Shown one piece after another: positions 18,358 to 62,572 of a stretch of 64,000 bases of DNA. Positions within the stretch are counted from its first letter, which is position 1; every line of letters starts with the position of its first letter. The position numbers and the translations under genes are program-made. This DNA is from an uncultured Candidatus Saccharibacteria bacterium (lineage in GTDB: Bacteria; Patescibacteriota; Doudnabacteria; UBA920; O2-02-FULL-48-8), in contig CAZSDS010000001.1 of assembly GCA_964605735.1 (NCBI GenBank), positions 198,771 through 262,770 on the forward strand. The letters run 5' to 3'. The notes under the pieces were generated by a model. That model was not told the origin of the DNA. It made no database searches and worked only from the letters and a program-made list of their open reading frames with translations.

Positions 18358-19977
18358 TTACTTTGCTGAATTTTCCTGAATTTGCTTCAGCCTCCGCTGA
18401 GTGGCAATTTCAGAATCCAGCCGGACCAGTTCTGGGTCTTCGCGGGTCTCAACGAAGCTCATGCCGCTGAAAATGGTCGGATGAACCTCGAGCCCAAGCT
18501 GATACATCTGTTTGGCGAGCTTCCTGTATCCTGGATGACCGTCCAGCCCGGATCTGAGTTCGATGAGGTGGTACGCTTCCCTCGCATTGGTGATGAAGCT
18601 ATAACGCATCTGGTGTCCCATCAGGGTTGCATACTGGGCCTCTTCCGTGAATCCTGCTTCATACAAGTGTGCGTACAGTGCTTCCGAGATGCGGTAGCAA
18701 CGCCTGTAGTCTTCCTCAAACCCAGCGTCAATGATTGTCTGCGGAACGTGGTAGCCGTAATGCGGCGTAAGCTGCTGCCATTCCAAAGCATCCACCATGC
18801 GGTGCCGCTGGAGGTCACGGAACGTGCCATAATCTCCAACAAAACTCCACTCATAGTGCGCTTTTTCAAAGGCGCGCCCAGGCCGGTGCCTTCGGTTCCC
18901 TCTCTCTCCGATGTACGCCATCAGGATGCGGCGCTTTTCGTCATCAGACAGATCTGCAACTGCATCCCTGACCTGATAGTGCGAGGCATGTACGCCAGGG
19001 GCACCAAACAGAATCTTCTCCACGATACTCAGTTCGTTTCTTGGCCAGTAATCCAGCAGCTCAACGCGAGGATCGAACTTCGAACCCAGTTCCCATTCAT
19101 CATCTTTCATGAGCTGCAGGTTTTTTGCAATGCGGGTCGCCTCCCTTCTGGTGGCCTTGATGTGGTTGATGGTTGCAATCCCGCGGTGCGGCAGGTCAGT
19201 GCGCTCGAAAAACGGTGCAGCCACCATCCTGACGTGCTTGAGGATTTGCTCCCCGAGCTCGTTGAACTCCTGCAGGTTCCAGGCCATAAGGTTCATGATC
19301 ATGCGGTCAATAGCCTGCGCACTCCCAACCAAACCAATATTGGAAAGAGTTGCTGCAGGAAGCACAGAACGAACAGCATCGCACGCCTTGGAACGGGTAG
19401 AGTTGAGCCAGGCAGTGCGATTCTCGGGGCTGTCGAGCGGGATCGCCTTGCGGTAGTGTTCGGTCAGCTCTCTGACCATCTTGGAGTACGTGTCGAACAG
19501 CAGAGTCATCTGCTGATCGTAGTGAATACGGAGGTTCTCAGTCAGGTTCTTTGGCGTGTAGAATAGGTAGCGGCCATCCGCGTCCTTTTGGTCAAAGAAA
19601 ATGTATCGGGTCGACTGTTCAAGATACGCCTGGAGCCTTCCCCACTCCACTGCTTTTGTGGCGAGGTTTGAGATCCTCACCAACCCAATGTGGATGCAAA
19701 TAAGCTGTGCCACGGAATCATCACCAAAACCGGTAACGATCTTGCTGGCCATGTCTGAGGCCTTTGACGGGTCTTGGGCAAACTCATCAGCAATGATCGC
19801 CCTGATGTCGTATTGGCTGCGGGACAGCCGGGCCATGGCAGCCGCGGAAAGAATTGGGCTGCCGCCCTTAAAGGCGTAGACAGAACTGTCCACGTCAGTG
19901 ACGATTTCGGAAAGGTACTTTCTCCCTTCATCGGTGATGCGCGGAATCGGTCCACTTTTGTCCAAATACGGGTTCAT
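18358..19977 (-). CDS. thyX: Flavin-dependent thymidylate synthase-like protein, long form (Thy1/ThyX family), with atypical substrate-motif residues
   Basis: 539 aa. It contains RHR (LQRHRMVDALEWQQLTPHYGY) and the C-terminal ThyX block NAREAYHLIELRSGLDGHPGYRKLAKQMY, which aligns by eye (from memory) with T. maritima [25 protein letters not shown]. The canonical ...LSGRY residues read ...LTPHY here. The DNA is GC-rich. Confidence 0.7.
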   Translation of the reverse strand: MNPYLDKSGPIPRITDEGRKYLSEIVTDVDSSVYAFKGGSPILSAAAMARLSRSQYDIRAIIADEFAQDPSKASDMASKIVTGFGDDSVAQLICIHIGLVRISNLATKAVEWGRLQAYLEQSTRYIFFDQKDADGRYLFYTPKNLTENLRIHYDQQMTLLFDTYSKMVRELTEHYRKAIPLDSPENRTAWLNSTRSKACDAVRSVLPAATLSNIGLVGSAQAIDRMIMNLMAWNLQEFNELGEQILKHVRMVAAPFFERTDLPHRGIATINHIKATRREATRIAKNLQLMKDDEWELGSKFDPRVELLDYWPRNELSIVEKILFGAPGVHASHYQVRDAVADLSDDEKRRILMAYIGERGNRRHRPGRAFEKAHYEWSFVGDYGTFRDLQRHRMVDALEWQQLTPHYGYHVPQTIIDAGFEEDYRRCYRISEALYAHLYEAGFTEEAQYATLMGHQMRYSFITNAREAYHLIELRSGLDGHPGYRKLAKQMYQLGLEVHPTIFSGMSFVETREDPELVRLDSEIATQRRLKQIQENSAK

Positions 19978-20135: not shown

Positions 20136-21209
20136 ATGTGGCCTAGAGGCAACGTGCTCGTGGATTCCGATATCCGCAAGCTTATGAGCGGACCACGTCC
20201 GAGTATCGCAACAAAAGGGACTGAGATCCCTCCAAGCTCACTGGACATGGCGGTCGGCGAGCGCGTCTGGCAAGTCTCCGGTCTGCCCACAGTGGCTGGC
20301 GGGTTTGATTTCAAGACGTTTATCGACGAATACGCCATAAACGAAATTCCGCACACTAAGCGCCCTTGGGCGTTCACACCAGGCAGCATCTACTTTGCAG
20401 AACTCGAGCCGAAATTCCGCCTGCCTGAATGCGTCGGTGGCGTTACCAACGCCAAAAGTTCTGCAGGGAGAATTGACCTGTATTGCCCCACAGTAGCGAA
20501 CGGGTGCGACCAATACAACGTGGTCCCCGCGGGTTACAAAGGTAAGCTGTACATGTTAATGGTCCCGCAAAGCTTTTCTTTCCGAGGGGTGCGGGCTCAC
20601 GAATTTGTCCAGATTCGATTGAACGAGGGCGAGCGGCAGTATCTTCAGGGATTCGAACTTCAAATGCTGCACGACCAGTACAAGCTGGTTTTAAACCGCA
20701 AACCGGTCCTCACGCAATCAGGGCTAATGCTGCATTTGGATCTGCGAAACAACCTGGTCGCAACCAAAAACGGCAAACCAATCGACCTCAACAGGCGGGA
20801 TATAAACCCGAGGTACTACTTTAGACGCAAGTTGAAGGACGCACAAGGAAGGCTTTTCCTTGAGCCCGGGGAGTTTTTGCTCGCCAACACAATGGAATAC
20901 CTGCGCATCCCTGACAAGGTGTGCGCAGAGATGGAGGCTCATGACGAAAAACAAGGCGAGATGCGCACGCATTATGCCGGGTTTTTCGATCCTAACTTTG
21001 AAGGCAACATTGTTTGTGAAATCAGGAATATTGGCACTGCGCCGATTATCCTGTCTCACGGACAGCCGATTGCCTTGGTTAGATACGAAGCTCTCCGTTC
21101 AAGACCAGTGGCGCTCTACGGCCAAAAGAAATCAGGTGCCAAGGTGTCAAATTACCAAGGCCAGCGGGGAATCCGCCTGGCGAAGTATTTTGCCCCCTGG
21201 GCTGCCTGA
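20136..21209 (+). CDS. dcd: dCTP deaminase-like protein, long (~360 aa) form (dUTPase-superfamily fold)
   Basis: 357 aa. A dUTPase/Dcd-like motif HYAGFFDPNFEGNIVCEIRNIG is present. The SD GGAGG lies 5 nt upstream. The DNA is GC-rich. Confidence 0.6.
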   Translation: MWPRGNVLVDSDIRKLMSGPRPSIATKGTEIPPSSLDMAVGERVWQVSGLPTVAGGFDFKTFIDEYAINEIPHTKRPWAFTPGSIYFAELEPKFRLPECVGGVTNAKSSAGRIDLYCPTVANGCDQYNVVPAGYKGKLYMLMVPQSFSFRGVRAHEFVQIRLNEGERQYLQGFELQMLHDQYKLVLNRKPVLTQSGLMLHLDLRNNLVATKNGKPIDLNRRDINPRYYFRRKLKDAQGRLFLEPGEFLLANTMEYLRIPDKVCAEMEAHDEKQGEMRTHYAGFFDPNFEGNIVCEIRNIGTAPIILSHGQPIALVRYEALRSRPVALYGQKKSGAKVSNYQGQRGIRLAKYFAPWAA

Positions 21210-35892: not shown

Positions 35893-37806
35893 TTATGGAG
35901 CGACTTCTCTCATTTTAACTGCACCATTTTGAGTTTTTGTCAGAAGTTGGGTTAAGCAGACACGTCTTGTTTTGCTTCCGGTGCCGTCATAGTAATGAAT
36001 TGTCGAACAGTTGGAGATGGTGTCAGTGGATGAGGTTGAGTTCAATGTTGTGTCGAATTGAATAACCCACTTGTTGCCGCCCACATCCTTTTTGCCTGAA
36101 ACGTTAAACGTCAGGTTTGGATACGCGCCGGAGATTGCCGGGCTATTTAAAACGGCATTAGGACCGCTAACAGCAAGGTTGCGAACGTTGCTCAAATTTA
36201 TGGAAGGATTGTCTGTAATTTTTGTAATATATCCAGCTGATGGCCCAAGGTTGTCAATAAGCAGTTGGATTCTCAGAGTGTCTCCATTCTTGATGTTTTC
36301 AGGCTTGAACCCTGTTTGGCCATTTACAGCCACAACAGACATAGAGCCTTCGATTTGGGCACTGCAGGCGGTGACCAGTGATGATTTGTACGCTGGTGAA
36401 GGATAGATTTGGGCCGGGAAGTTTGTGTATGCCGCTACAATATAGTGGTAGCTCTTATTGTTTTGAGGGTGATCTACATAGGAGGTTGTGTTTGCAGATA
36501 CAGTTGCAATGCGCTGATATTGGGTATAGTCGCCGCCATTTTCCTGCTCTGAGCGGTAAACATGGAATCCAGCCTCAATGCTTGACGTGTCATCCCAAGT
36601 CAAAGTGATTTGGTTGCATGTGGCGTTGTTGGTTGAGTTGATGACCGGTGCTCCTGACGGTTGCTCCTTTTCATATGTGATCTGAAATGCGATAGTCCCC
36701 TGGTCAGCCAGCGTTTGTGGCTGATTTGGAATAATATCCTTAAGCAAGTAATTTGAACCGTTATATACCACGCTTGCCGGCGCAAAAATCAGCTGATAAA
36801 TTCCTGTTTGCGCAGAATACATAGCATAAGTGCCGTTTCCGTTGAAGTTTTGAGGGCCATTGACCACCCATGAGGTTGGAATGTTTGAGGTCACAAGGAT
36901 ATTGCCGTTTGTGCTTGGCGCTTGATCTATCACCTCAAAAGTCATGGAAACCTGGTTGCCGAAATAAATGTCGTTCCCCGGAGCCACCCCGCAAACAATA
37001 CCGCTTGAGTCCTTATATTCAGCACCTGCTCTATGCACCATTTGGAAAGAAATTGTATAGACGCCAGGCGTTGATGGGGCCACCAAAGTAAAACTCTTTT
37101 CTTGGGTATCGGTCGGTTTCATGCTTGGAGACAAGTGCCCGTAAAGAGGTGAAGTGGTCAGATTACTGGTCTGAACAAGCTGGTAAAAGGATCCGTGATA
37201 AAACCAGGTTTCTCCGGAGTTATAAATGTTCAGCCCAAAAGGGATGGCACTTCCGGCAGTGATTTTGGCTGGGATAATTTGGGTTGCGGTCACAACTGCG
37301 TTTTCAGTGCAAGTGGTTGGGTTAACGCCTCCTGGGCAGTCCACTCCATAGTCAAAGACTTCACCCATGAAGACTGCGCCTTCGTAGCTTCCGTCCACGT
37401 TTCTGTAGGCGGCATCAAGCTGGATGCGTCCGCAGTTGTAGCTGTTGATGTCATAGGAAAACATAGTCTGCCCAGTTTCGCCAGGGGCATAGTTAAGCTT
37501 GCCGGACATTGAGAAGGAAGACTGGTTCAGGGTGTGAGCCGTTGCAGCACATCCGGAAACGGGGTCATGGAAAGCAGCCTTCTCTATGTACACCGCTTCA
37601 CTGCCAAAGTTATCAATATCCGCAATCCATTCAATTTTCCCGTTATTGATAATTGATGATTGGCCTGGTTTGTGGCAGTTTTCTGAGTTGTCATTGACCC
37701 AGTGAACGCTTACGGCGACATTAGCCTGGGCAATATCAATAATCGGCTGAACAAAAGCAACCGTTGCAATTATCGCCACTAACAAAATTTGTGCTAATTT
37801 CTTCAT
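35893..37806 (-). CDS. Large secreted surface protein with fibronectin type III-like domain
   Basis: 637 aa with an N-terminal signal peptide (MKKLAQILLVAIIATVAFV). An Fn3-like segment (ITLTWDDTSSIEAGFHVYRSE...YHYIVAAYT) is present. The sequence is Ser/Thr/Asn-rich. Confidence 0.55.
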   Translation of the reverse strand: MKKLAQILLVAIIATVAFVQPIIDIAQANVAVSVHWVNDNSENCHKPGQSSIINNGKIEWIADIDNFGSEAVYIEKAAFHDPVSGCAATAHTLNQSSFSMSGKLNYAPGETGQTMFSYDINSYNCGRIQLDAAYRNVDGSYEGAVFMGEVFDYGVDCPGGVNPTTCTENAVVTATQIIPAKITAGSAIPFGLNIYNSGETWFYHGSFYQLVQTSNLTTSPLYGHLSPSMKPTDTQEKSFTLVAPSTPGVYTISFQMVHRAGAEYKDSSGIVCGVAPGNDIYFGNQVSMTFEVIDQAPSTNGNILVTSNIPTSWVVNGPQNFNGNGTYAMYSAQTGIYQLIFAPASVVYNGSNYLLKDIIPNQPQTLADQGTIAFQITYEKEQPSGAPVINSTNNATCNQITLTWDDTSSIEAGFHVYRSEQENGGDYTQYQRIATVSANTTSYVDHPQNNKSYHYIVAAYTNFPAQIYPSPAYKSSLVTACSAQIEGSMSVVAVNGQTGFKPENIKNGDTLRIQLLIDNLGPSAGYITKITDNPSINLSNVRNLAVSGPNAVLNSPAISGAYPNLTFNVSGKKDVGGNKWVIQFDTTLNSTSSTDTISNCSTIHYYDGTGSKTRRVCLTQLLTKTQNGAVKMREVAP

Positions 37807-37811
37807 ATGGT

Positions 37812-38309
37812 TTAGAGGTTGATTAATTCGATGCGCTCTGCTGATATTTGATCGGATGAATTTGGGTTAGTTGAGCTGTACACGGCAATATTCTTTCCCG
37901 CTGACAAATCAACTCTTTCTGCGGGAGCCAAAACAGGCTCTCCGCCTACAATCGAAACAGAATTGATTTCTGAATTTTCAGTTACAAAAAAGGTTTTTTC
38001 CTGTTCAGAGACGGTTACGGATGATCCATTTGTCTGAACAATGTTTACCCTGACAGTAATGCGATCTCCCTGAACTTCGGTAATTTTACCGTTTAAGGAG
38101 TATTCTTTGATTTGCAACTCATCAGAGGCAGACAAGACTTTTGGATTTTGGCTGTCGAACAACAAATATCCAGCTACACCAACGCTCAAAATCACCGTAA
38201 TTGCCAAGGCAGAAACGGCTTTATAAATGGCAGGGTGTGTAACTTTCAGCAATAATTTCTTATGCTGGATTGTAACCCTTAACATAGTGAATTTGGTGGA
38301 GATTCGCAT
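37812..38309 (-). CDS. Hypothetical signal-anchored protein (operon partner of the Fn3 protein)
   Basis: 165 aa with a single N-terminal TM. Its stop is 6 nt upstream of the Fn3-protein start. Confidence 0.4.
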   Translation of the reverse strand: MRISTKFTMLRVTIQHKKLLLKVTHPAIYKAVSALAITVILSVGVAGYLLFDSQNPKVLSASDELQIKEYSLNGKITEVQGDRITVRVNIVQTNGSSVTVSEQEKTFFVTENSEINSVSIVGGEPVLAPAERVDLSAGKNIAVYSSTNPNSSDQISAERIELINL

Positions 38310-38430: not shown

Positions 38431-38748
38431 CTATAAACCAATAACTACCCACAACAAAACAAGGGCAACCAGTGATGTGAGGACGAAGAATAATAATCCG
38501 GCTGCCGAAAGGGTTCGAAATGTTTTCGAGCCAGGCACTGTAACAGGAGGAGTATTTTTGTTTTCCAAACTTCTCCTGTAGTCCAGTAATATTGAAACGA
38601 TTGCTGTTATGAGAATTAAAAACCCAATAGCAATAAGCGATAAGCCTACAACATTCTCACCGCTCCTGCCATCGAATAATTGTATGATCCATCCCAGAAT
38701 TAAAGCAATGGTCCCGGAATAGATCAATGTTTTTGATGTAAATCTCAT
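38431..38748 (-). CDS. Hypothetical 4-TM membrane protein
   Basis: 105 aa, hydrophobic, immediately downstream of gyrB. Confidence 0.4.
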   Translation of the reverse strand: MRFTSKTLIYSGTIALILGWIIQLFDGRSGENVVGLSLIAIGFLILITAIVSILLDYRRSLENKNTPPVTVPGSKTFRTLSAAGLLFFVLTSLVALVLLWVVIGL

Positions 38749-38753
38749 TATTC

Positions 38754-40829
<2,076 letters not shown>

Positions 40830-40892
40830 TTAAGGTAACTTAATTATAGCAAAAAATAGCCTCTTTTGGAAGCTATTTTTAGGGGTTGTTTT

Positions 40893-42032
40893 TTATCTCA
40901 ATTCTGCGTTGTAAATGGCCTTGGTTTGCTCGTAAAGCTTGCTTTGCAAAGGGTCAACTTCTTCCGTTTTCAGCGTTTTATCCGGACTTCTGTAAATAAC
41001 CCGGTAAGTGTAACTGATCCTGTCAGGCCCGAACTTTGCCTCATTCTCGTATTTATCAAGCAGAGCCACTTCCTCCACCAAATCCCCACCAATGTCACGA
41101 ATCAGGTCAAAGTAATCATTTGGTATAAAACTTTTACTGACAATAAATGAAATGTCCCTGGTTATTGGCGGATACTTGCTGACTTCCTGGAATTTCTGCC
41201 CCAGTTTGAGTTGTTTGATGACGCGAGGGTCCTCTGACCAAAGCAGGCGTATATCCGGCAAAGCCATGCTGATTATTGCCAGTCTTTCCAAACCAAATCC
41301 AAATGCCCAACCATTATATTTTTCAGGATCAACGCCGAGTTTTTGCAAGACGCTGTCTTTGACCACGCCACTTCCCAGGACTTCAACCCATTTGCCGTCA
41401 ATTTCAATTTCCATTTCAAGACTCGGGTCCGTGTACGGGAATTTATCCTCGTTTATGCGATATTTCACACCTGGGCCGAATACAGCCTGGACAATCTTCA
41501 CTAACACCCCACTAAGGGTTTCCCTGTTTATTTCTTCTTTGTCCTTTGGGGCCAGATACCAGCCATCCATCTGGTGGAAAATATTCATGTGGCGCCTGTC
41601 GATTTCATCCTTGCGGTATACCTTGCCATAGCAGAAAGTGCCGAAGGATTCTCCTCTTGCGATTTTTTCCTTAATCTCCGGCTGGTTCAGGTAGTAGTAC
41701 CACATGACAGTGGTGTGGGTGCGCAAAATATTTTTCTCATCCACGTAATAGGTGTCAGATTTGCTTCGCGCCGGGTGGTCTGCCGGAAAGTCGAATAAAT
41801 CAAATGTAATGTCAGTCGGTACTATTTCCGGAACCTTGATCAAGTCAAAATTTTTAAACTCAGGTATGTTGATGATCCTTTGCGCAATTTCGTAAATGGG
41901 ACTGGATGGCGTCCGGGACAAATCAGGCATGTTCAAAAAGCGCTGCATGCGCAGGCTTTCAGGATCTTTTTTTGTTTCAAGATATTTACGAAGCTGTGCT
42001 TCCTGTCCTTCAATGACTATTTCGTTTCTCAT
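40893..42032 (-). CDS. pheS: Phenylalanyl-tRNA synthetase, monomeric mitochondrial-type architecture (PheS catalytic core fused to C-terminal FDX-fold anticodon-binding domain)
   Basis: PheS motifs HPARSKSDTYY, LRTHTT, GKVYRKDEIDRRHMNIFHQMDG, FPYTDPSLEMEI and GFGLERLAIISMALPDIRLLW are present. An extra C-terminal ~90 aa (KYPPITRDISFIV...YFDLIRDIGGDLVEEVALLDKY...ISYTYRVIYRSPDKTLKTEEVD) matches the anticodon-binding domain found in PheT and in mitochondrial PheRS (recalled from memory). No pheT is adjacent. Confidence 0.8.
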   Translation of the reverse strand: MRNEIVIEGQEAQLRKYLETKKDPESLRMQRFLNMPDLSRTPSSPIYEIAQRIINIPEFKNFDLIKVPEIVPTDITFDLFDFPADHPARSKSDTYYVDEKNILRTHTTVMWYYYLNQPEIKEKIARGESFGTFCYGKVYRKDEIDRRHMNIFHQMDGWYLAPKDKEEINRETLSGVLVKIVQAVFGPGVKYRINEDKFPYTDPSLEMEIEIDGKWVEVLGSGVVKDSVLQKLGVDPEKYNGWAFGFGLERLAIISMALPDIRLLWSEDPRVIKQLKLGQKFQEVSKYPPITRDISFIVSKSFIPNDYFDLIRDIGGDLVEEVALLDKYENEAKFGPDRISYTYRVIYRSPDKTLKTEEVDPLQSKLYEQTKAIYNAELR

Positions 42033-42053
42033 GGTTCAGAGTTAATGCAAGCT

Positions 42054-42494
42054 TTAGGATTTTACCATTTCAGAGGAAAATTCGCTACCCAGAGGGGCGT
42101 CATCCTTTAGGATGAGAATTCCACGGCTGTCTGAGGTAAGCCCGAGCTCTTTTCCGGAACAAATCATACCTTGTGACTCAATGCCACGGATTTTGGCTTT
42201 CCCCAATGTAAAAGGCTTTCCTTCAGGGTCATGCTGGTCATGTGGAATTATAGCCCCTGGCAAAGCTAAAGGAACAATAGCTCCCGCCTCAAAATTCCAG
42301 GCTCCGCAAACTACCGGGCCTATTGTTTTTTGCCCGTCAGTTAGCTCCACTACGCGAAGGCGGTCGGCGTTTGGGTGCTTCTCAACCTTTGTAACTTTAG
42401 CCACTATGATATTAGGGAAACTTTTATTAACGTGCTTCCCTGAGTTATTATTTCCATTTGAAAACAAATTGACTAACCAGTCTGCAATATTCAT
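42054..42494 (-). CDS. Standalone tRNA-binding domain protein (EMAP/Myf-like OB fold; homolog of PheT N-terminal domain / CsaA-Trbp111 family)
   Basis: The ATG at 42494 (MNIADWLVN...) was chosen. AKVTKVEKHPNADRLRVVELTDGQ...GKAKIRGIESQGMICSGKELGL matches the PheT N-terminal tRNA-binding domain. It lies immediately upstream of pheS. Confidence 0.65.
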   Translation of the reverse strand: MNIADWLVNLFSNGNNNSGKHVNKSFPNIIVAKVTKVEKHPNADRLRVVELTDGQKTIGPVVCGAWNFEAGAIVPLALPGAIIPHDQHDPEGKPFTLGKAKIRGIESQGMICSGKELGLTSDSRGILILKDDAPLGSEFSSEMVKS

Positions 42495-42495
42495 T

Positions 42496-43233
42496 TTATT
42501 GGCATTTAAAGAAAATAAATCTAGGCAACCTTGTGGCATATTCTAGCTTAGGGTGGGTTTTTAGGAAAGAGTCCGGCAATTCATGGGGCTCCACGATGTT
42601 TGATATGGAAAACCCTGCGTTAGCCAGAGATTGCGCATACTCCCCAATGGTCCTGTGATAATGGGTTAAATCAGTTTTGAAGTGGCTCTCAAAGCGTCCT
42701 TTTTTGTGGGAATAGTAATCAAACATCAAGGCTCTTGGTCTGGCAAAAGTCATCTTGTTCCAGAAACTTTTATACAGCGCGGCTGTTGGCTGGTTAAAAG
42801 CTGGATGCAAAACTGAAAAAATCAGGTGACCGCCTGGCTTGAGTAGCCTCTTAGCATCTGCCAGGAAAGTGTCGATTTTCTGCATATGCATCAGAAGCAT
42901 ATTAGCTAAAACCAAGTCGAAGGATGAGTCCTTGAAATTTGATTTATCCATCAAATCCTGAACTTCAAATTTTATGTCTGGGTATTTTTGCTTGGCAATC
43001 TTTATCATTTCCGCAGACCCGTCCACCCCTATCACCTTGGCTCCGCGTTTTTTTAGCCAATTCGAATAATATCCATTGCCGCATCCGGCGTCTAAAACCA
43101 GCTTTCCACTGCAATCAGACACCAAGACTTCCATTGCGCTGTCAATTAAAAGCGTCCGATAGGTATTTTCTTGCGCAATATCCTTGTCCCAACCAGCTGC
43201 CGCATCTTCCCATTTAATCAGATCAGAATTCAT
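42496..43233 (-). CDS. Class I SAM-dependent methyltransferase
   Basis: 245 aa with motif I VLDAGCGNGYY and the Methyltransf_11-like LKPGGHLIF. Confidence 0.7.
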   Translation of the reverse strand: MNSDLIKWEDAAAGWDKDIAQENTYRTLLIDSAMEVLVSDCSGKLVLDAGCGNGYYSNWLKKRGAKVIGVDGSAEMIKIAKQKYPDIKFEVQDLMDKSNFKDSSFDLVLANMLLMHMQKIDTFLADAKRLLKPGGHLIFSVLHPAFNQPTAALYKSFWNKMTFARPRALMFDYYSHKKGRFESHFKTDLTHYHRTIGEYAQSLANAGFSISNIVEPHELPDSFLKTHPKLEYATRLPRFIFFKCQ

Positions 43234-51788: not shown

Positions 51789-51867
51789 TGGCGCTCGCGA
51801 AGGGATTTGAACCCTCGATCTTCTCCGTGACAGGGAGACGTGTTAGACCGGGCTACACCACGCGAGC
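51789..51867 (-). tRNA. tRNA-Asp (GUC), CCA encoded
   Basis: The minus-strand sequence GCUCGCGUGGUGUAGCCCGGUCUAACACGUCUCCCUGUCACGGAGAAGAUCGAGGGUUCAAAUCCCUUCGCGAGCGCCA folds as a cloverleaf by hand, with anticodon GUC. Confidence 0.85.
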
Positions 51868-51883
51868 ACGATATTGATTCCCT

Positions 51884-51960
51884 TGGTGGCTGGGGTGAGA
51901 ATCGAACTCACGACCTCGGGCTTATGAGTCCCACGCTCTAACCAACTGAGCTACCCAGCC
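51884..51960 (-). tRNA. tRNA-Met (CAU), elongator-type (could alternatively be a lysidine-modified tRNA-Ile2), CCA encoded
   Basis: GGCUGGGUAGCUCAGUUGGUUAGAGCGUGGGACUCAUAAGCCCGAGGUCGUGAGUUCGAUUCUCACCCCAGCCACCA. The G1-C72 and C11-G24 pairs make it elongator-like. Confidence 0.8.
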
Positions 51961-51965
51961 TTTCC

Positions 51966-52040
51966 TGGTTGCGGGGGCGGGACTTGAACCCGCAGTCTTC
52001 AGGTTATGAGCCTGACGAGATACCATTTCTCTACCCCGCG
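51966..52040 (-). tRNA. Initiator tRNA-fMet (CAU), CCA encoded
   Basis: CGCGGGGUAGAGAAAUGGUAUCUCGUCAGGCUCAUAACCUGAAGACUGCGGGUUCAAGUCCCGCCCCCGCAACCA. The C1 x A72 mismatch and the A11-U24 pair are initiator hallmarks. Confidence 0.8.
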
Positions 52041-54781: not shown

Positions 54782-55411
54782 CTAATTGGCGCTGGTTGTA
54801 GACTCCTGAACGGAGGTCCTTGAAGAGTTCTGGTGGTACTGAATCCAGCGTTGACGGGCAATAAAGTAGGTTTTCTTCTTGCCGTCGCCGTAGTCGATGT
54901 GGCAGAAGACAGCCACGCGAACTCCGGGGATGTTGGCTTTGATGTGCGACTTGGCTGTGAAGGCAATCCGGACAATGTCTTCGAACGAAAGATTGCCCGC
55001 CTCCCGAGCCATTGCGCATGGCGCATGAATATACAGCGCGACCGTTGAGATTCCCTTGTGGTCGAACAGATACTTCATGTCGAACATCAGGTATTCACCG
55101 TAGTACGGAGTCGCGTAGTTCGCGGGCGAGAGCATCGGGATCCTGAGAGCTCCTCCGAGCGGTGACATCGGAGTTACTCGTTTCTGACAGCCAGAATTCA
55201 AGATGTCAGCGACCTTGTAGTCATACATCTCGGGGAACTGGTCAGGGTCTCCGCAGGAAACAATGATCAGCCCGGTCTTAGGGTCAAGCTTGTGCCCATC
55301 GATGTTATCGAGGACTCTCGCCGCCTTGTAGCTCGCAATCAACTCGAGGTCACGGTCGGTAAGTGCACCCAATTGGTCCTCCTGTTCGACTCTAACAAAA
55401 AAGCAAAACAC
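54782..55411 (-). CDS. Hypothetical protein (GC-rich ORFan with conserved-looking Cys/His positions)
   Basis: About 209 aa with an uncertain start (the GTG at 55411, or an internal Met). Candidate catalytic Cys/His residues lie in IIVSCGDPD, LYIHAPCAMA and AVFCHIDYGDG. GC is elevated. Confidence 0.35.
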   Translation of the reverse strand: MFCFFVRVEQEDQLGALTDRDLELIASYKAARVLDNIDGHKLDPKTGLIIVSCGDPDQFPEMYDYKVADILNSGCQKRVTPMSPLGGALRIPMLSPANYATPYYGEYLMFDMKYLFDHKGISTVALYIHAPCAMAREAGNLSFEDIVRIAFTAKSHIKANIPGVRVAVFCHIDYGDGKKKTYFIARQRWIQYHQNSSRTSVQESTTSAN

Positions 55412-55532
55412 ACCATGTGTTCTGCCTTTTCCTCAAACCACAAAATGATCTGGAGAAAGGGAGGAACTGCTACGACTAGTTATTCTACTCCTTTTTTCGC
55501 TTTTAGTCAACGCTATAGCTGACGTTGGCCGT

Positions 55533-55979
55533 TTATTCCGTAAATACCCCTGATTCGAGGTTTGTATGTGTTCGGGTACGGTGCTTGCGCGCAACTTTAA
55601 GCCGGGCCAAGTGCTTTTCCAGAGAAGCCACAGCTTCAGCGGAAACTTTATCATCGGAATAGTTTTCCTGCATCATTTTCTGCGCCAGCTCTCTGGCCTT
55701 CTCAGCACGATCAGGATCTATCTCATGGCCGAATTCAGCTGTGTCAGCGAGCACTATGACTTCATTACCTTCGCGAACCTCCACAAAACCGCCTGACACA
55801 GCAAAAAAATTGTCATTGCCATTTTCAACAAATCTAAGTTCCCCAGCCTTTAGGTTGGAAACCAAAGGTATATGATTTTTGAGAACAGTGATTTCGCCGG
55901 TCTGAGTAGGCAGAGTAATTGACTCTACATCCTTTTCCAACAAAATTCGTTCTGGCGTGACAATTTTAAATCTAATCAT
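55533..55979 (-). CDS. atpC: F1Fo ATP synthase epsilon subunit
   Basis: MIRFKIVTPERILLEKDVESITLPTQTGEITVLKNHIPLVS..., 148 aa. Confidence 0.8.
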   Translation of the reverse strand: MIRFKIVTPERILLEKDVESITLPTQTGEITVLKNHIPLVSNLKAGELRFVENGNDNFFAVSGGFVEVREGNEVIVLADTAEFGHEIDPDRAEKARELAQKMMQENYSDDKVSAEAVASLEKHLARLKVARKHRTRTHTNLESGVFTE

Positions 55980-55994
55980 TATCTTGCATTAAAA

Positions 55995-58245
<2,251 letters not shown>

Positions 58246-58246
58246 T

Positions 58247-59740
58247 TTACGAGTATGATTGCTTGAATTCTGTTATCGCCTTTTTCAAATCCTCTTCAAT
58301 TTCTGAAAAATCTTTGATGGTTGGGGTTTTCTCAACAAGTGCTTTGTATTGGATATCCAGGAATTTAGTGAACTTGCTTTCCCAGTCGCGGACCTTCTCA
58401 ACTTCAACATCGTCAAGGTAACCGTTTGTCGCGGCGTAAAGCACTGCCACCTGATGCCCAACAGGCACAGGCGCAAACTGGTCTTGCTTTAAAACTTCAG
58501 TAAGTCTGCGCCCCAACTCAATTTTGGCGCGTGTCTGCGGATCCAAATCAGAGGCGAACTGCGCAAAAGCTGCCAGCGCGCGGAATTGCGCAAGATCCAG
58601 TCGCAATTTTCCGGCAACTTTTTTAACTGCCTTTGTCTGAGCTGCTGACCCAACGCGGGACACCGACAAACCAACGTTCAACGCAGGCCTTATGCCTTGA
58701 TAGAACAAGTCGGTTTCCAAATAAATTTGACCATCTGTAATGGAAATAACGTTAGTTGGAATATACGCCGAGACATCACCGGCTTGGGTTTCAATAATCG
58801 GCAATGCAGTCAGAGAACCTGCACCTTTTTCGTCATTTAACTTTGCTGCGCGCTCAAGCAGGCGAGAATGCAGATAGAAAACATCGCCTGGGTAGGCTTC
58901 GCGACCCGGCGGACGGCGCAGGAGCAAAGAAATTTCGCGGTACGCAACAGCGTGCCTGGAAAGGTCATCGTAAACAATCAAAGCGTGCTTGCCGCTGTCC
59001 ATAAAATACTCACCCATGGCACAACCGGCAAACGGCGCAATGTAAGACAAAGCAGCAGGATCAGACGCCCCAGCAACCACAATAATTGTGTGCTTTAAAG
59101 CATCATGTTTTTCCAATTCCCCCATTATTCGGGCAATTTTAGATTCCTTCTGGCCAATCGCGACATAAATACAAATAACATCTTTGCCTTTTTGGTTGAT
59201 GATTGTATCGATTGCAACCGCAGTTTTACCGGTCTGGCGGTCACCAATGATCAATTCGCGCTGACCCTTACCAATGGGAATCATGGAATCGATAGCCTTG
59301 ATTCCGGTTTGCAGCGGCTCATGCACTGATTTTCTTTCCATAACACCCGGAGCAATTTTTTCAACCGGATTAGTTTTGTCTGTCTTGATAGGACCCTTGT
59401 TATCAAGCGGCTGACCAAGCGGATTCACAACACGGCCTATCAATTCTTCACCTACCGGCACTGATAAAACGTTTCCAGTTCCTTTTACGTGGTCACCTTC
59501 CTTGATGTGCGCATATTCACCAAGAAGAATCGCACCAATGGAATCCTCTTCCAAGTTTAAAGCCACTCCCAGGGTTCCGCCTGGGAATAGAAGCATTTCT
59601 GAGGCTTTAACATTCGAAAGACCACTGATCTTGGCAATGCCGTCACCTACCTGAATCACTGTACCAACTGTTTCAGCCTTGGCCTCAGTTTTAAACTTTT
59701 CGATTCTGTCGCGCAGCTGCGCTATTACATTTTGGCTCAT
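58247..59740 (-). CDS. atpA: F1Fo ATP synthase alpha subunit
   Basis: 497 aa with the P-loop GDRQTGKT. Confidence 0.9.
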
Positions 59741-59741
59741 A

Positions 59742-60140
59742 TTAGTCTGCTAACTTTCCTTTTAAGTCTTCAAGCGATTTCTTAACCGAGGCGTCGATCA
59801 GAGTGTCGTCCATCTTTATGATGACACCGCCCAGTATTTTTTCATCAACCTTTTTCTTAAGTTCCACTTCCGCGTTTACCATCTTGTTCAAGTGTTCAAC
59901 AATTTCCTTTTCTGAACGCTTGTCCAAAGGTTTTGCTGATGTAACCTCAGCAATCTTTATCCCTTTCTCGCCTTTTTCAATTTTTTCGAATTCAAGGGAA
60001 ATTTCCTCGAACATCCCGGTGTCATTGTTCAGTGCCAAGGCTTGGACAAAATTACCGAGGACTTTGTCATGATCTTCTGCTCTTGTGTCCTGGAGGCTCT
60101 CATATAGAGTTTTGGCGTATTGGTGTGCAGTTAGCTTCAT
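59742..60140 (-). CDS. atpH: F1Fo ATP synthase delta (OSCP) subunit, short form
   Basis: 132 aa. The C-terminus [25 protein letters not shown] is delta-like. The position between atpF and atpA is conserved. Confidence 0.6.
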
Positions 60141-60751
60141 CCCAAGTCCTTTATTGAGCCTGCCACCAGCTCTTTGTCTTTGCTGGAATCAAGCTTACTT
60201 CTAAGGATTTTTTCAGAGGCGGAAACTACCAAATCAGCCACATTTTGCCTGACATCCTTCAGCATTTGGTTTTTTTCATTTTCAATAGCTGTTTTAGCCT
60301 GTTCAATCATTTTGTTTGCCTGATCCTGTGCACTTGTTATTGTTTCCTGCCTTACTTTATCCGCGGTTTCAGATGCAGTTTTCAGGACTTTCTCAGCTTC
60401 AGATCTGACTTTTTGCATCTCCTGCATTTTCCATTCGTCGAATTTCTTCTTTTCATCTTCCATATACGCAGCGTTTTTTAATCCGGACTCGATTTTTTCT
60501 TGTCTAGCTGTTAAAGTGGCGCCAAGCGGCTTAACCACCCACTTCCAGAATATAAATAAAACAATCGCAAAGTTAACCAACTGGGCAAGAAAAAGTTTCC
60601 AGCTAATCCCCAACGTACCTAATGGTCCGGTTGCTGCTTCTTCAGTTGCGTGTGCTGCGTCTTGGGCAACTTCAGCTGCTGTGTGAACGGCTTCGGGTGA
60701 TGCGTTTTGTACAGCCTCAGTGGCTGCCATCAATATTGAGTGAAAATCCAT
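60137..60751 (-). CDS. atpF: F1Fo ATP synthase b subunit (with Ala/Glu-rich N-terminal extension)
   Basis: The ATG at 60751 (MDFHSILMAA...) was chosen. There is a TM helix (FLAQLVNFAIVLFIFWKWVV) and then a long coiled coil. The ORF-track start at 60823 falls inside a GC-rich intercistronic hairpin. Confidence 0.6.
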   Translation of the reverse strand: MDFHSILMAATEAVQNASPEAVHTAAEVAQDAAHATEEAATGPLGTLGISWKLFLAQLVNFAIVLFIFWKWVVKPLGATLTARQEKIESGLKNAAYMEDEKKKFDEWKMQEMQKVRSEAEKVLKTASETADKVRQETITSAQDQANKMIEQAKTAIENEKNQMLKDVRQNVADLVVSASEKILRSKLDSSKDKELVAGSIKDLG

Positions 60752-60826
60752 AATATAAGTTACTTCCTGTGGCCATCCTGAGGACGGTTCGCTTAAACAG
60801 CGTCCACCCCAGAATGGCGACACGAC

Positions 60827-61099
<273 letters not shown>

Positions 61100-61186
61100 T
61101 TAATTCTTGTGGTTTATTATTCGGTCGGCGGAGCGCAAAAGTGAATGTTTAAAAATTTTAAGCACTCAATTTTGGGCTCAACAACT

Positions 61187-62020
61187 TTAATTCCCGGCAA
61201 CAGGATGCTCGTCAGCCTCATGCGCAACACTATGAACCGGCGCAGTGGCCATGGTTAAATAAACCAAGGTCAGCATGGAAAATACTACAGCCTGTATCAT
61301 ACCCACAAGCAGTTCAAGCAACATAAAAGGCAATGGCACAAAGTAGGCAATCAATCCTGCCAGCACCGTCAGGAGCACTTCACCGGCAAAAACATTGCCG
61401 AATAATCGAAGCGATAGCGAAACCATTTTGGCAACTTCAGAAAACAACTCAATTATACCAACACCAAACTCAATACCTGCAACCATAATATGAGTACCGC
61501 CTTTTTTGAATCCGTGAATCAAATCCCCAACTTTGATAAATTTATTCGCGTACTTGAAGAAACCAATTGCAGCAACACCGAATACATGTGAAGCAATCAC
61601 AGCAAAAACAGCCATGGCCAAAGTCATATTTAAGTCAGTGTTTGCGGGACGGAAAATCGGCACCAGTTCTGTGTGTCCGTGCATGACCAACCAACGGCCA
61701 ACAGAACCAATCCCAGGCAACAAGCCCATCCAGTTTGTAATCAAAATAAATAAAAACAGTCCGCCTACTATTGGCAAAAACTGCATTGATTTCTTCCTGT
61801 CCTTTGTAACTTGGTCTACATATCCAAGCATAAATTCAAGAACACCCTCAGCAGCGTTTTGCAGGCCTGTAGGAATCTCTGATGTGCGCTTTCTGAGCAA
61901 TAAACCAATTACTAAAAACAACAAAACAGCCAATGTGGAGTTTATGTACGCATTGGTTATTGGAAAACTCCCGATATGGAAGATTGGTTCAGCTACTAGA
62001 GGTGGTAAAGCTAGGATCAT
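61187..62020 (-). CDS. atpB: F1Fo ATP synthase a subunit
   Basis: 277 aa, polytopic, with the conserved Arg in the SLRLFGNVFAGE region. Confidence 0.8.
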   Translation of the reverse strand: MILALPPLVAEPIFHIGSFPITNAYINSTLAVLLFLVIGLLLRKRTSEIPTGLQNAAEGVLEFMLGYVDQVTKDRKKSMQFLPIVGGLFLFILITNWMGLLPGIGSVGRWLVMHGHTELVPIFRPANTDLNMTLAMAVFAVIASHVFGVAAIGFFKYANKFIKVGDLIHGFKKGGTHIMVAGIEFGVGIIELFSEVAKMVSLSLRLFGNVFAGEVLLTVLAGLIAYFVPLPFMLLELLVGMIQAVVFSMLTLVYLTMATAPVHSVAHEADEHPVAGN

Positions 62021-62496: not shown

Positions 62497-62572
62497 TGGA
62501 GCCAGAGGTGGGAATCGAACCCACGACCTCTGCTTTACGAAAGCATTGCTCTACCAACTGAGCTACTCTGGC
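62497..62572 (-). tRNA. tRNA-Thr (CGU), CCA encoded
   Basis: GCCAGAGUAGCUCAGUUGGUAGAGCAAUGCUUUCGUAAAGCAGAGGUCGUGGGUUCGAUUCCCACCUCUGGCUCCA, with anticodon loop UUCGUAA. Confidence 0.85.

What the first reader, a model, noticed from the sequence alone, without database searches (positions are those of the whole stretch)
40893..42494. Mitochondrial-type monomeric PheRS plus a standalone PheT-like tRNA-binding domain; no pheT partner
The pheS-type gene carries all alpha-subunit catalytic motifs plus an extra ~90-aa C-terminal ferredoxin-fold anticodon-binding domain (KYPPITRDISFIV...YFDLIRDIGGDLVEEVALLDKY...YTYRVIYRSPDKTLKTEEVD). To my recollection this domain otherwise occurs only at the C-terminus of bacterial PheT and in the monomeric mitochondrial PheRS; the similarity to the human mitochondrial PheRS C-terminus is striking but recalled from memory. 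Immediately upstream is a 147-aa standalone EMAP/Myf-type tRNA-binding OB domain, which is equivalent to the PheT N-terminal domain. The usual pheS-pheT pair is absent: gyrB follows directly. Together these suggest a minimised, editing-domain-free PheRS built from three remnants, which is unusual for a bacterium and has fidelity implications (no B3/B4 editing site).
Basis: partly seen in the sequence, partly recalled or inferred. Interest (0 to 1): 0.7.

Follow-up and report, generated by a model that had tools for sequence, protein, structure and literature searches.

The report
Mitochondrial-type single-chain PheRS in Patescibacteria
A tiny-genome (Patescibacteria/Parcubacteria) bacterium encodes the one-chain, proofreading-free kind of phenylalanyl-tRNA synthetase otherwise known from mitochondria, here paired with a small tRNA-binding helper gene. 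I found no sign of the usual two-subunit bacterial enzyme nearby, but I could not check the rest of the genome.

Summary
Window 40893-42032(-) encodes a 379-aa protein with a class-IIc PheRS catalytic core plus a C-terminal FDX-ACB domain. Its best solved relative is human mitochondrial PheRS (E 2.5e-57). The AF2 model (pLDDT 96) superposes on the closed form 3CMQ over its full length (TM 0.78). Window 42054-42494(-) encodes a 146-aa OB-fold protein closest to the B2 domain of bacterial PheT.

The synthetase belongs to a large, tightly conserved Parcubacteria family (>6,700 90%-identity clusters). It is at least as conserved as the neighbouring GyrB and usually sits beside gyrB. The helper gene lies directly upstream in 28 of 80 species genomes, all of one Doudnabacteria-like subclade, and is fused in frame in two.

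No B3/B4, B5 or B6/B7 PheT sequence occurs in the 64-kb window, in about 8 kb beyond its left end, or in 1.39 Mb of related loci. Genome-wide absence of pheST could not be tested.

"Three remnants" is only partly right. The enzyme is a stand-alone PheRS-M-type lineage, and the helper is a lineage-specific add-on. It is not NCBIfam's SrmL "mystery ligase".

No paper describing this was found in ten searches. I rate it a new variant of a known kind, of moderate to high interest.

The parts
40893..42032 (-). Single-chain, mitochondrial-type (PheRS-M-like) phenylalanyl-tRNA synthetase, 379 aa
   Evidence: ORF. Pfam tRNA-synt_2d + FDX-ACB. Best PDB sequence match is human mtPheRS, E 2.5e-57. AF2 pLDDT 96.4, pTM 0.91. 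Foldseek 3cmq/5mgv TM 0.78, rmsd ~3.3 A over ~388 columns.
41211..41909 (-). Class IIc catalytic core (aa 42-274). Motifs: RTHTT, YRKDEIDRRHMNIFHQMDG (motif 2), FPYTDPS, GWAFGFGLER (motif 3)
   Evidence: Pfam span. The motifs are conserved in 118-120 of the 120 closest homologues and were compared with E. coli PheS RTQTS/FHQMEG/FPFTEPS/GFAFGMGMER.
40896..41180 (-). C-terminal ferredoxin-fold anticodon-binding domain (FDX-ACB, equivalent to PheT B8), aa 285-379
   Evidence: Pfam PF03147, 75.1 bits against a cut-off of 31.1. Matches TIGR00472 positions 692-798 and PheT chains 683-791 in the PDB.
42054..42494 (-). Stand-alone PheT-B2-like OB-fold tRNA-binding protein, 146 aa; proposed accessory tRNA-binding factor of the synthetase
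   Evidence: Pfam tRNA_bind. TIGR00472 positions 38-153 at 7e-35, and YtpR at 99.5 bits against a cut-off of 100. Best PDB matches are the PheT B2 domains of P. aeruginosa (6.8e-22) and E. coli (1.3e-18). It lies directly upstream in 28 of 80 genomes and is fused in L010/L011 and P0028/P0054.
42033..42053 (-). 21-nt spacer between the helper gene and the synthetase gene. It is replaced by an in-frame linker in the fused homologues
   Evidence: Sequence read. The fused proteins P0028/P0054 read through this junction. Gaps of 9-341 nt occur in other genomes.
42496..43233 (-). SAM-dependent methyltransferase gene. Its stop codon ends 1 nt before the helper gene's ATG, so it is probably co-transcribed. 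A functional link is not shown
   Evidence: Pfam Methyltransf_11/25. Junction ...TAAAATG read. The same order occurs in the relatives L001, L006 and L007.
40851..40880 (-). A/T-rich hairpin followed by a T run just after the synthetase stop codon, then a TATAAT box (40843-40848) ahead of gyrB. Probably marks the end of the transcription unit
   Evidence: My reading of the sequence. The consensus scan did not report it (too few G-C pairs), so this is weak evidence.
38754..40814 (-). gyrB, the conserved downstream neighbour (context only; not part of the system)
   Evidence: Pfam domains. gyrB lies within 3 kb of the synthetase gene in 68 of 80 related genomes.

Best explanation
The 379-aa gene is this bacterium's working phenylalanyl-tRNA synthetase, and it is of the single-chain "PheRS-M" design known from mitochondria.

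Proposed mechanism:
- One polypeptide carries the class-II catalytic core, which activates Phe and transfers it to tRNAPhe.
- A C-terminal ferredoxin-fold domain reads the GAA anticodon.
- As in human mtPheRS, the anticodon-binding domain probably packs against the catalytic core in the free enzyme and swings away when tRNA binds.
- There is no B3/B4 editing site. Accuracy must therefore come from the synthetic site alone or from factors not seen here.

Role of the helper: in the Doudnabacteria-like subclade to which the window belongs, a small PheT-B2-like OB-fold protein is encoded immediately upstream, and is sometimes fused to the N-terminus. It most likely acts as an added tRNA-binding module that raises affinity for tRNAPhe. 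This would substitute for the tRNA contacts that the alpha coiled-coil and the beta subunit supply in the (alpha-beta)2 enzyme.

Shown here: domain architecture, fold, motif conservation, family distribution, synteny and the fusions.

Inferred: monomeric state, Phe specificity, domain swing, the helper's role, and that this is the only PheRS in the genome.
For: Architecture and fold:
- tRNA-synt_2d + FDX-ACB.
- The top PDB sequence matches are all human mtPheRS (E ~1e-57), against at best 7e-39 for bacterial alpha chains.
- The AF2 model (pLDDT 96.4) matches the closed mtPheRS structure 3cmq/5mgv over its full length (TM 0.78). Bacterial alpha chains cover only the core (TMq ~0.54).

Catalytic competence:
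- Motif 2 Arg/His/Phe/Gln, the HTT loop, FPxT and the specificity Ala in GWAFG are kept in 118-120 of 120 homologues.
- The Glu->Asp change in FHQxDG also occurs in the locust protein P0296, which NCBI names "phenylalanine--tRNA ligase, mitochondrial-like" (FHQLDA).

Housekeeping character:
- More than 6,788 homologue clusters at 63-81% identity, all from Patescibacteria.
- 244 GTDB species representatives carry a close relative.
- Mean identity to the window protein is 66.1%, against 60.1% for GyrB in the same 68 genomes. gyrB is adjacent in 68 of 80 genomes, with secE-nusG-rplK-rplA nearby.

No canonical enzyme seen:
- E. coli PheT residues ~160-570 hit nothing in the window or in 1.385 Mb of 80 related loci.
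- Nothing PheT-like was found in the Pfam tables of the window or its left extension.

Helper link:
- It lies directly upstream on the same strand in 28 of 80 genomes, and is a single fused ORF in two species. P0028 and its 97%-identical cluster mate P0243 occur on 4 and 3 contigs from NCBI, JGI and Logan.
- Its nearest structures are PheT B2 domains.
Against: - The rest of the ~797-kb contig could not be searched, so a canonical pheS-pheT pair elsewhere is not excluded.
- Some CPR lineages do have a PheRS beta subunit (PMC5370408).
- The protein falls below the curated cut-offs of both TIGR00469 pheS_mito (232.3 against 258.35) and TIGR00468 pheS. Its top NCBIfam hit by score is the "PheS-related mystery ligase" SrmL (247.7 against 300).
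- In a rough NJ tree the family sits nearer to SrmL and to an Oligoflexia paralogue in a non-housekeeping context than to eukaryotic mtPheRS.
- Two substrate-pocket positions differ from almost all PheRS: Glu->Asp, and the second Phe->Tyr in FPYT.
- The helper is absent from the neighbourhood in 52 of 80 genomes, so it is not essential to the design.
- AF2 gives only moderate confidence for the OB domain in the fusion (pLDDT 65-89), and no interface could be inspected.
- The fit to the closed state may reflect AF2 training on 3CMQ.
Confidence: 0.72

Rival explanations
1. Paralogue with another job. The genome has an ordinary pheS-pheT pair elsewhere, and this gene is a PheS-derived ligase of different or auxiliary function. 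Examples would be an SrmL-like "mystery ligase", a stress or back-up PheRS, or an enzyme that charges a tRNA for non-ribosomal use.
For: The highest NCBIfam score is to SrmL (247.7 bits), and neither PheRS model reaches its cut-off. In a rough NJ grouping the family sits with SrmL and with Oligoflexia proteins that lie among peptidase, GCS2 and racemase genes. Pocket substitutions E->D and F->Y are present. Whole-genome absence of pheST is untested.
Against: True SrmL members score 359-442 bits and have lost the FHQxEG motif. This family scores ~247 and keeps every PheRS motif. A 63%-identical family member passes the pheS_mito cut-off (264.3). The family is at least as conserved as GyrB and sits in housekeeping synteny. 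Redundant aaRS genes are unlikely in genomes of 0.7-0.9 Mb (inference). No PheT-like sequence was seen in 1.45 Mb examined.
Confidence: 0.15
2. The OB-fold gene is a general tRNA-binding or chaperone protein (Trbp111/CsaA/YtpR type) that merely happens to lie upstream. The synthetase works alone, as in most Parcubacteria and in mitochondria.
For: The YtpR model scores 99.5 against a cut-off of 100, and the YtpR-like structure 3bu2 matches at 9e-16. 52 of 80 genomes have the synthetase without the OB gene within 10 kb. Stand-alone PheT-N-terminal-like proteins associated with other synthetases exist, such as NCBIfam TapR.
Against: The gene is always immediately upstream and on the same strand when present (28 of 28), with gaps as short as 9-60 nt. 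In-frame fusions occur in two species-level genomes, seen in independent assemblies. Its best matches are PheT B2 domains, not YtpR or CsaA.
Confidence: 0.3
3. Recent horizontal acquisition. The gene came into Parcubacteria from a huge phage or from a eukaryote, and its resemblance to mtPheRS reflects that transfer rather than an old bacterial lineage.
For: Short (345-370 aa) PheRS-M genes lie on 160-494 kb phage-like contigs and in the huge-phage record LR745206.1. The CPR family collapses to about one full-length 50%-identity cluster, which means shallow diversity.
Against: The family spans many Parcubacteria "phyla" with conserved gyrB synteny, and its divergence roughly tracks that of GyrB. 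That fits vertical descent within the group. In the rough tree it does not nest inside the phage/eukaryote clade.
Confidence: 0.15

Closest known systems
Mitochondrial phenylalanyl-tRNA synthetase (human FARS2, PDB 3CMQ/3TUP; yeast MSF1; TIGR00469; "PheRS-M" in AARS Online, PMC11580382)
   Same: One chain combining the bacterial-alpha-type catalytic core with a B8-like FDX-ACB anticodon-binding domain. No coiled-coil, no beta subunit and no B3/B4 editing domain. About 32% identity over the full length, and the same closed-state domain packing in the model.
   Different: It is encoded in a bacterial chromosome in housekeeping context, not a nuclear gene for an organelle. It is shorter (379 against ~415 aa) and lacks the insertion that splits the alignment to mtPheRS. 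It scores 232 against the TIGR00469 cut-off of 258. It has FHQxDG and FPYT variants. In one subclade it has a B2-like OB partner or N-terminal fusion that mtPheRS lacks.
Bacterial (alpha-beta)2 PheRS, PheS/PheT (T. thermophilus 1PYS/2IY5, E. coli 3PCO)
   Same: The catalytic core is homologous to PheS (31% identity to E. coli PheS residues 59-327). The C-terminal domain is homologous to PheT B8, and the helper to PheT B2 (38.5% identity to E. coli PheT 38-151).
   Different: It lacks the alpha N-terminal coiled-coil, B1, B3/B4 (editing), B5 and B6/B7. B8 is fused to the alpha core. It is presumably not a heterotetramer.
SrmL, "PheS-related mystery ligase" (NCBIfam NF051887)
   Same: Same alpha-core + FDX-ACB architecture and similar length. 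It is the highest-scoring NCBIfam model for the window protein (247.7 bits).
   Different: The score is below the 300-bit cut-off, whereas genuine members score 359-442. In genuine members the FHQxEG motif was not found and motif 3 reads GLALGMGLDR or GLAMG.GLDR; this family keeps the canonical PheRS motifs.
Trans-acting or appended OB-fold tRNA-binding modules (Trbp111, CsaA, YtpR, the MetRS C-terminal domain, Arc1p/EMAPII, TapR)
   Same: The helper has the same Pfam tRNA_bind OB fold. The idea that such a module adds tRNA affinity to a synthetase in cis or in trans is established for MetRS and Arc1p (my knowledge of the field).
   Different: By sequence the helper is closest to PheT B2. Its partner is a PheRS-M-type enzyme. 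No such pairing was found in the literature searched.
PheRS-M-type genes of huge phages
   Same: Compact alpha + FDX-ACB proteins of 345-370 aa that pass the pheS_mito cut-off.
   Different: They are phage-borne auxiliary translation genes, only 36-40% identical to the window protein, and they fall in a different branch of the rough tree.

Membership tests
PheRS-M (mitochondrial-type monomeric PheRS; TIGR00469) | Class IIc PheRS catalytic core with motifs 2 and 3 and the Phe-pocket residues | tested here: met
   Pfam tRNA-synt_2d at 1.8e-55. RTHTT, motif 2 R/H/FHQ, FPxT and GWAFGxGLER are conserved in 118-120 of 120 homologues. Two conservative deviations are present (E->D, F->Y).
PheRS-M (mitochondrial-type monomeric PheRS; TIGR00469) | B8-like FDX-ACB anticodon-binding domain fused C-terminally to the catalytic core in one chain; no coiled-coil; no B1-B7 | tested here: met
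   FDX-ACB at aa 285-379, 75 bits. The AF2 secondary structure shows only short N-terminal helices. PheT model positions ~154-691 have no match.
PheRS-M (mitochondrial-type monomeric PheRS; TIGR00469) | Score at or above the curated equivalog cut-off (258.35 bits) | tested here: not met
   232.3 bits. The 63%-identical family representative P0244 scores 264.3 and does pass. The family therefore straddles the cut-off.
PheRS-M (mitochondrial-type monomeric PheRS; TIGR00469) | Three-dimensional match to mtPheRS, including the relative position of the two domains | tested here: met
   Foldseek: 5mgv/3cmq at E ~1e-34, TMq 0.78, rmsd 3.0-3.4 A over ~388 columns. The open form 3tup gives TM 0.59. This is a predicted model, not an experimental structure.
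PheRS-M (mitochondrial-type monomeric PheRS; TIGR00469) | Active as a monomer; charges tRNAPhe with Phe | not testable with these tools
   Needs biochemistry (SEC-MALS and aminoacylation assays).
PheRS-M (mitochondrial-type monomeric PheRS; TIGR00469) | It is the only PheRS of its compartment or genome (no alpha-beta enzyme alongside) | tested here: inconclusive
   No PheS/PheT-like sequence other than these two genes was found in the 64-kb window, about 8 kb beyond its left end, or 1.385 Mb of 80 related loci. The remaining ~90% of the contig could not be read.
SrmL (NF051887) | Score at or above the 300-bit cut-off | tested here: not met
   247.7 bits. Bona fide members score 359-442.
SrmL (NF051887) | Diverged active-site motifs (no FHQxEG; motif 3 GLALG.GLDR or GLAMG.GLDR) | tested here: not met
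   The window protein has FHQMDG and GWAFGFGLER.
Bacterial PheS alpha subunit (TIGR00468) | Score at or above 237.45 bits; N-terminal coiled-coil; ends after motif 3; partnered with PheT | tested here: not met
   164.1 bits. There is an extra 95-aa FDX-ACB domain. No adjacent pheT.
Bacterial PheT beta subunit (TIGR00472), tested for the 146-aa helper | Full-length beta subunit with B1-B8, including B3/B4 editing, B5 and the catalytic-like module | tested here: not met
   Only model positions 38-153 are matched; 120.4 bits against a cut-off of 402.65. The helper is a B2-domain homologue only.
YtpR family tRNA-binding protein (NF045760), tested for the helper | Score at or above 100 bits and coverage of the full 185-position model | tested here: not met
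   99.5 bits, matching profile positions 51-185 only. PheT B2 domains are closer than the YtpR-like structure 3bu2.

The most novel reading that the evidence does not exclude
A whole bacterial radiation (Parcubacteria/Paceibacteria, thousands of species) has replaced the supposedly universal heterotetrameric, proofreading PheRS with an editing-free single-chain enzyme. The alpha-core+B8 fusion that defines mitochondrial PheRS would then not be a eukaryotic invention. It would be an older bacterial or phage design, shared by Parcubacteria, huge phages and the SrmL paralogues, from which the mitochondrial enzyme may have been recruited. In one subclade the enzyme has re-acquired a PheT-B2-like tRNA-binding module in trans or in cis. 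That would give a natural series for studying how minimal a PheRS can be.
Probability: 0.35. Interest if true: 0.8.

Novelty: new variant of a known kind. Interest (0 to 1): 0.6.

Why it matters
PheRS is the textbook case of an obligate (alpha-beta)2 synthetase with a dedicated editing site. A 2010 review states that this organisation is conserved in all known prokaryotes, and that the mitochondrial monomer is the only monomeric class-II-core enzyme (PMC3275996).

If Parcubacteria rely solely on a PheRS-M-type enzyme, four things follow:
1. A large part of bacterial diversity translates Phe codons without Tyr or m-Tyr proofreading. This bears on mistranslation tolerance in ultra-small symbionts.
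2. The origin of mitochondrial PheRS becomes testable with bacterial and phage relatives.
3. Marker-gene and completeness schemes, and metabolic reconstructions, that expect pheS/pheT will mis-score these genomes. PGAP-style records call the gene "hypothetical protein", while JGI calls the 146-aa OB protein "PheRS beta chain".
4. The compact enzyme and its optional helper make a small, possibly orthogonal PheRS scaffold for engineering.

Tried and rejected
- **Whole-genome pheT test.** Not possible. The contig can be read only within ±10 kb of window genes. The left extension L091 added about 8 kb with no pheT, and the right-hand look-up stayed inside the window.
- **Genome-collection scan.** The window's own genome was not among the hits.
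- **Third homologue search.** I left it unused. I had no Patescibacteria PheT to use as bait, and an E. coli bait would return only enterobacterial hits.
- **SrmL membership.** Rejected on score and motifs.
- **T-box, leader or other RNA regulator upstream.** Rfam found only four tRNAs in the window.
- **Promoter and terminator consensus scan.** Counts were no higher than in shuffled sequence, and it missed the A/T-rich hairpin I read by eye.
- **tRNAPhe identity elements.** No tRNA-Phe gene occurs in the window or among the 88 tRNAs of the 80 loci.
- **Trans-editing factor nearby.** No B3_4, YbaK, AlaX or Dtd domains appeared in the Pfam tables of the window.
- **Docking of the OB domain on the synthetase.** The AF2 model of the natural fusion has pTM 0.77 and OB-domain pLDDT 65-89.
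- **AFDB structure search.** The library was unavailable.
- **Literature.** Ten full-text searches found no description of monomeric PheRS in CPR/Patescibacteria. Targeted reads of CPR papers found nothing either.
- **"Three in-situ remnants of pheST".** Rejected, because the gene order is B2-alpha-B8 and the helper is confined to one subclade.
Full report
**1. What is there**

Two closely spaced genes lie on the minus strand.

The first is 42054-42494 (146 aa). A longer reading from 42539 is unlikely, because homologues are 130-150 aa.

The second is 40893-42032 (379 aa). The two genes are separated by 21 nt.

The helper's ATG starts 1 nt after the stop codon of an upstream SAM-methyltransferase gene (42496-43233). 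An A/T-rich hairpin with a T run, and then a TATAAT box, separate the synthetase from gyrB (38754-40814). That is my reading of the sequence. The consensus scan did not pick the hairpin up.

The window belongs to a Patescibacteria genome close to "Candidatus Doudnabacteria". The closest named homologues are 78% identical. The protein database records the gene on a 797-kb contig.

**2. The synthetase**

Pfam finds the PheRS class-II core (aa 42-274, 1.8e-55) and the ferredoxin-fold anticodon-binding domain (aa 285-379, 6e-21).

Against all PDB sequences, the six best matches are human mitochondrial PheRS (2.5e-57 to 4e-56). The alignment runs through the C-terminal domain. Bacterial alpha chains follow at 7e-39 or weaker, and PheT chains match only at their last ~100 residues.

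An AlphaFold2 model built on 110 homologues is very confident (pLDDT 96.4, pTM 0.91). It superposes on the closed form of mtPheRS over its whole length (3cmq/5mgv: TM 0.78, rmsd ~3.3 A). It fits the open, tRNA-bound form poorly (3tup, TM 0.59). Bacterial alpha chains cover only the catalytic half.

The motifs that build the PheRS active site are present and almost invariant in the 120 closest homologues:
- RTHTT
- YRKDEIDRxHMNxFHQ(I/M)DG
- FPYTDPS
- GWAFGFGLER, which retains the specificity alanine (E. coli A294 by my knowledge)

Two positions differ from nearly all PheRS:
- The Glu of FHQxEG is Asp. Asp is also found in the locust protein P0296, which NCBI names "phenylalanine--tRNA ligase, mitochondrial-like" (FHQLDA).
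- The second Phe of FPFT is Tyr.

**3. Which family**

NCBIfam gives three near-misses:

| Model | Score (bits) | Cut-off (bits) |
|---|---|---|
| SrmL "PheS-related mystery ligase" | 247.7 | 300 |
| pheS_mito (TIGR00469) | 232.3 | 258.35 |
| pheS (TIGR00468) | 164.1 | 237.45 |

A 63%-identical member of the same family, P0244, passes pheS_mito at 264.3.

Genuine SrmL proteins score 359-442, and the FHQxEG motif was not found in them. The window protein is therefore not SrmL. It is best described as a PheRS-M-type enzyme that straddles the curated boundary.

An exhaustive search of 1.84 billion cluster representatives finds only 249 proteins at E<=1e-30. The whole CPR family collapses to essentially one full-length 50%-identity cluster.

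A rough NJ tree, rooted on the single outgroup E. coli PheS, has two sides:
- One side holds the CPR family, Oligoflexia-type proteins (found in a non-housekeeping context) and SrmL.
- The other side holds eukaryotic mtPheRS together with short forms from 160-494-kb phage-like contigs.

I treat this topology as a lead only.

**4. Distribution and constraint**

The word-indexed search returned more than 6,788 clusters at E<=1e-10. The best 120 are 69-81% identical to the query. Every organism name given by a source is a Patescibacteria taxon, apart from one MAG labelled "Candidatus Binatia".

In GTDB species representatives, 244 genomes carry a close relative. The best 80 are Doudna-, Zambryski-, Nomura-, Giovannoni-, Yanofsky-, Vogel- and Azambacteria, Paceibacterota and Minisyncoccia. 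Many carry generic or doubtful labels instead: "uncultured Candidatus Saccharibacteria" (which I take to be generic), "bacterium", and one "Candidatus Binatia".

In the 68 genomes where both genes could be compared, the synthetase is on average 66.1% identical to the window protein. GyrB in the same genomes is 60.1% identical. gyrB lies within 3 kb in 68 of 80 genomes.

This degree of constraint and the housekeeping synteny (gyrB, secE-nusG-rplK-rplA) are what one expects of an essential synthetase. They are not what one expects of an accessory paralogue.

**5. The helper**

It is a Pfam tRNA_bind OB fold. Its best NCBIfam match is the N-terminal part of PheT (positions 38-153, 7e-35), and YtpR is just under its cut-off (99.5 against 100).

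Its best solved relatives are PheT B2 domains (P. aeruginosa 6.8e-22, E. coli 1.3e-18). These rank ahead of the YtpR-like structure 3bu2 (9e-16).

Homologues form a coherent family of 98-162-aa proteins, mostly 130-150 aa. There are 1,240 hits, and none of the best 120 is embedded in a long PheT.

A family HMM finds the gene in 28 of the 80 loci. It is always immediately upstream on the same strand, with gaps of 9-341 nt. In two species (L010, L011) it is one continuous ORF with the synthetase. The fused proteins P0028 and P0243 (97% identical, one 90% cluster) occur on several independent contigs, and a second fusion, P0054, is on one.

Carriers are the genomes whose GyrB is at least 64% identical to the window's, that is, one Doudnabacteria-like subclade. 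Other Parcubacteria have the synthetase alone.

Adjacency plus fusion argues for a functional link. The restricted distribution, and the order B2-alpha-B8, argue that the helper is a later addition rather than a relic left in place by decay of pheS-pheT. That last step is inference.

**6. Is there a normal PheRS as well?**

This is the key open point.

E. coli PheT hits only two things: the helper (residues 23-158) and the C-terminus of the synthetase (573-794). Nothing matches the B3/B4, B5 or first part of the B6/B7 region. This holds for the window and for 1.385 Mb of 80 related loci.

The Pfam tables for the window and about 8 kb beyond its left end show no such domains and no trans-editing factor.

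About 90% of the contig remains unread. At least some other CPR lineages (Microgenomates) do have a PheRS beta subunit (PMC5370408).

I therefore put about 0.7 on "sole PheRS".

**7. Mechanism proposed**

Shown: architecture, fold, motifs, synteny and the fusions.

Inferred from mtPheRS (PMC3275996, PMC8136816) and from the model:
- The enzyme works as a monomer.
- The anticodon-binding domain (ABD) covers the catalytic core until tRNAPhe binding swings it out.
- The GAA anticodon is read by the FDX-ACB domain.
- No post-transfer editing occurs, because the B3/B4 site is absent.
- The OB helper supplies extra tRNA affinity in trans or in cis. This would replace contacts that the alpha coiled-coil and the beta subunit make in the heterotetramer.

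**8. Novelty**

Databases already label some of these proteins. UniRef calls one "phenylalanine--tRNA ligase" (name truncated in the output), and JGI uses "PheRS alpha chain". Other records call the gene "hypothetical protein". JGI calls the 146-aa helper "PheRS beta chain".

Ten full-text searches found no paper that describes a mitochondrial-type PheRS as the bacterial enzyme of CPR, or its pairing with a B2-like protein.

A review states that the heterotetramer is conserved in all known prokaryotes. AARS Online lists PheRS-M among its "mitochondrial-like" families, with 3CMQ/FARS2 as the example.

I classify the finding as a new variant of a known kind.

Noticed in passing
L005 10001-11065; L089 10001-11104; L090 10001-11047; phage record LR745206.1 613854-614882: Compact (345-370 aa) PheRS-M-type genes (alpha core + FDX-ACB, passing the pheS_mito cut-off) lie on 160-494-kb phage-like contigs. 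Their neighbours include terminase, Clp protease, T4 RNA ligase, PcfJ, Thy1 and a GluRS. One is also found in a 635-kb uncultured phage record. Huge phages therefore carry the single-chain PheRS design.
   Followed up: partly
L087 10001-11245 (Oligoflexia MAG JAIBBV010000034.1); L088 934-2067: The nearest non-CPR relative (P0246, 44% identity, FHQIDG) sits in an Oligoflexia genome among peptidase M20, GCS2, MR_MLE racemase and beta-lactamase genes. True SrmL "mystery ligase" members share the alpha+FDX-ACB architecture but lack the FHQxEG motif. Their function is unknown.
   Followed up: partly
Homologue lists: Annotation pitfall. GenBank MAG records name the synthetase and the helper "hypothetical protein". 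JGI names the 146-aa OB protein "phenylalanyl-tRNA synthetase beta chain". Pathway or completeness tools would thus either miss PheRS or wrongly count a full beta subunit.
   Followed up: no
Fragments P0252, P0253, P0256, P0258, P0260, P0271, P0272, P0359, P0381: A set of mostly partial CPR-family sequences has Gly where PheRS has the amino-group-binding Glu (Asp in this family), giving FHQ(M/I/F)GG or FHQ(M/F)GA. This could be a sub-lineage with an altered pocket, or an assembly or cluster artefact.
   Followed up: no
L002 12174-15515 (Ca. Sungiibacteriota CP066690.1): The gyrB next to the synthetase gene in this complete genome is 1,113 aa and carries an intein (Pfam Intein_splicing). The same locus has a 23S_rRNA_IVP protein gene and no tRNA_bind gene upstream of the synthetase.
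   Followed up: no
window 18358-19977 (-), with 17374-18294 (+) and 20136-21209 (+): An unusually long ThyX (539 aa, two Thy1 stretches) lies in the most G+C-rich part of the window (0.53 against ~0.45). It is flanked by a 306-aa thymidylate kinase-domain protein and a two-domain dCTP deaminase, forming a small dTMP-synthesis cluster.
   Followed up: no
window 54782-62020 (-): A complete F-type ATP synthase operon (a, c, b, delta, alpha, gamma, beta, epsilon) in a small Patescibacteria genome.
   Followed up: no
window 13057-13722 (-) and 12300-13052 (-): A GGDEF diguanylate cyclase next to a Peptidase_C39-like protein, with an AbiV-like HEPN protein nearby (see L091). These are signalling or defence genes in a reduced genome.
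   Followed up: no
window 35893-37806 (-), 37812-38309 (-), 38431-38748 (-): Three ORFs between gyrB and secE (637, 165 and 105 aa) have no Pfam match. The 165-aa and 105-aa ORFs start with hydrophobic, membrane-like segments. The called genes recur in the relative L001.
   Followed up: no
window 51789-52040 (-): A tight tRNA cluster, tRNA-Met, tRNA-Met, tRNA-Asp, plus tRNA-Thr at 62497-62572. There is no tRNA-Phe in the window or in any of the 80 related loci.
   Followed up: yes
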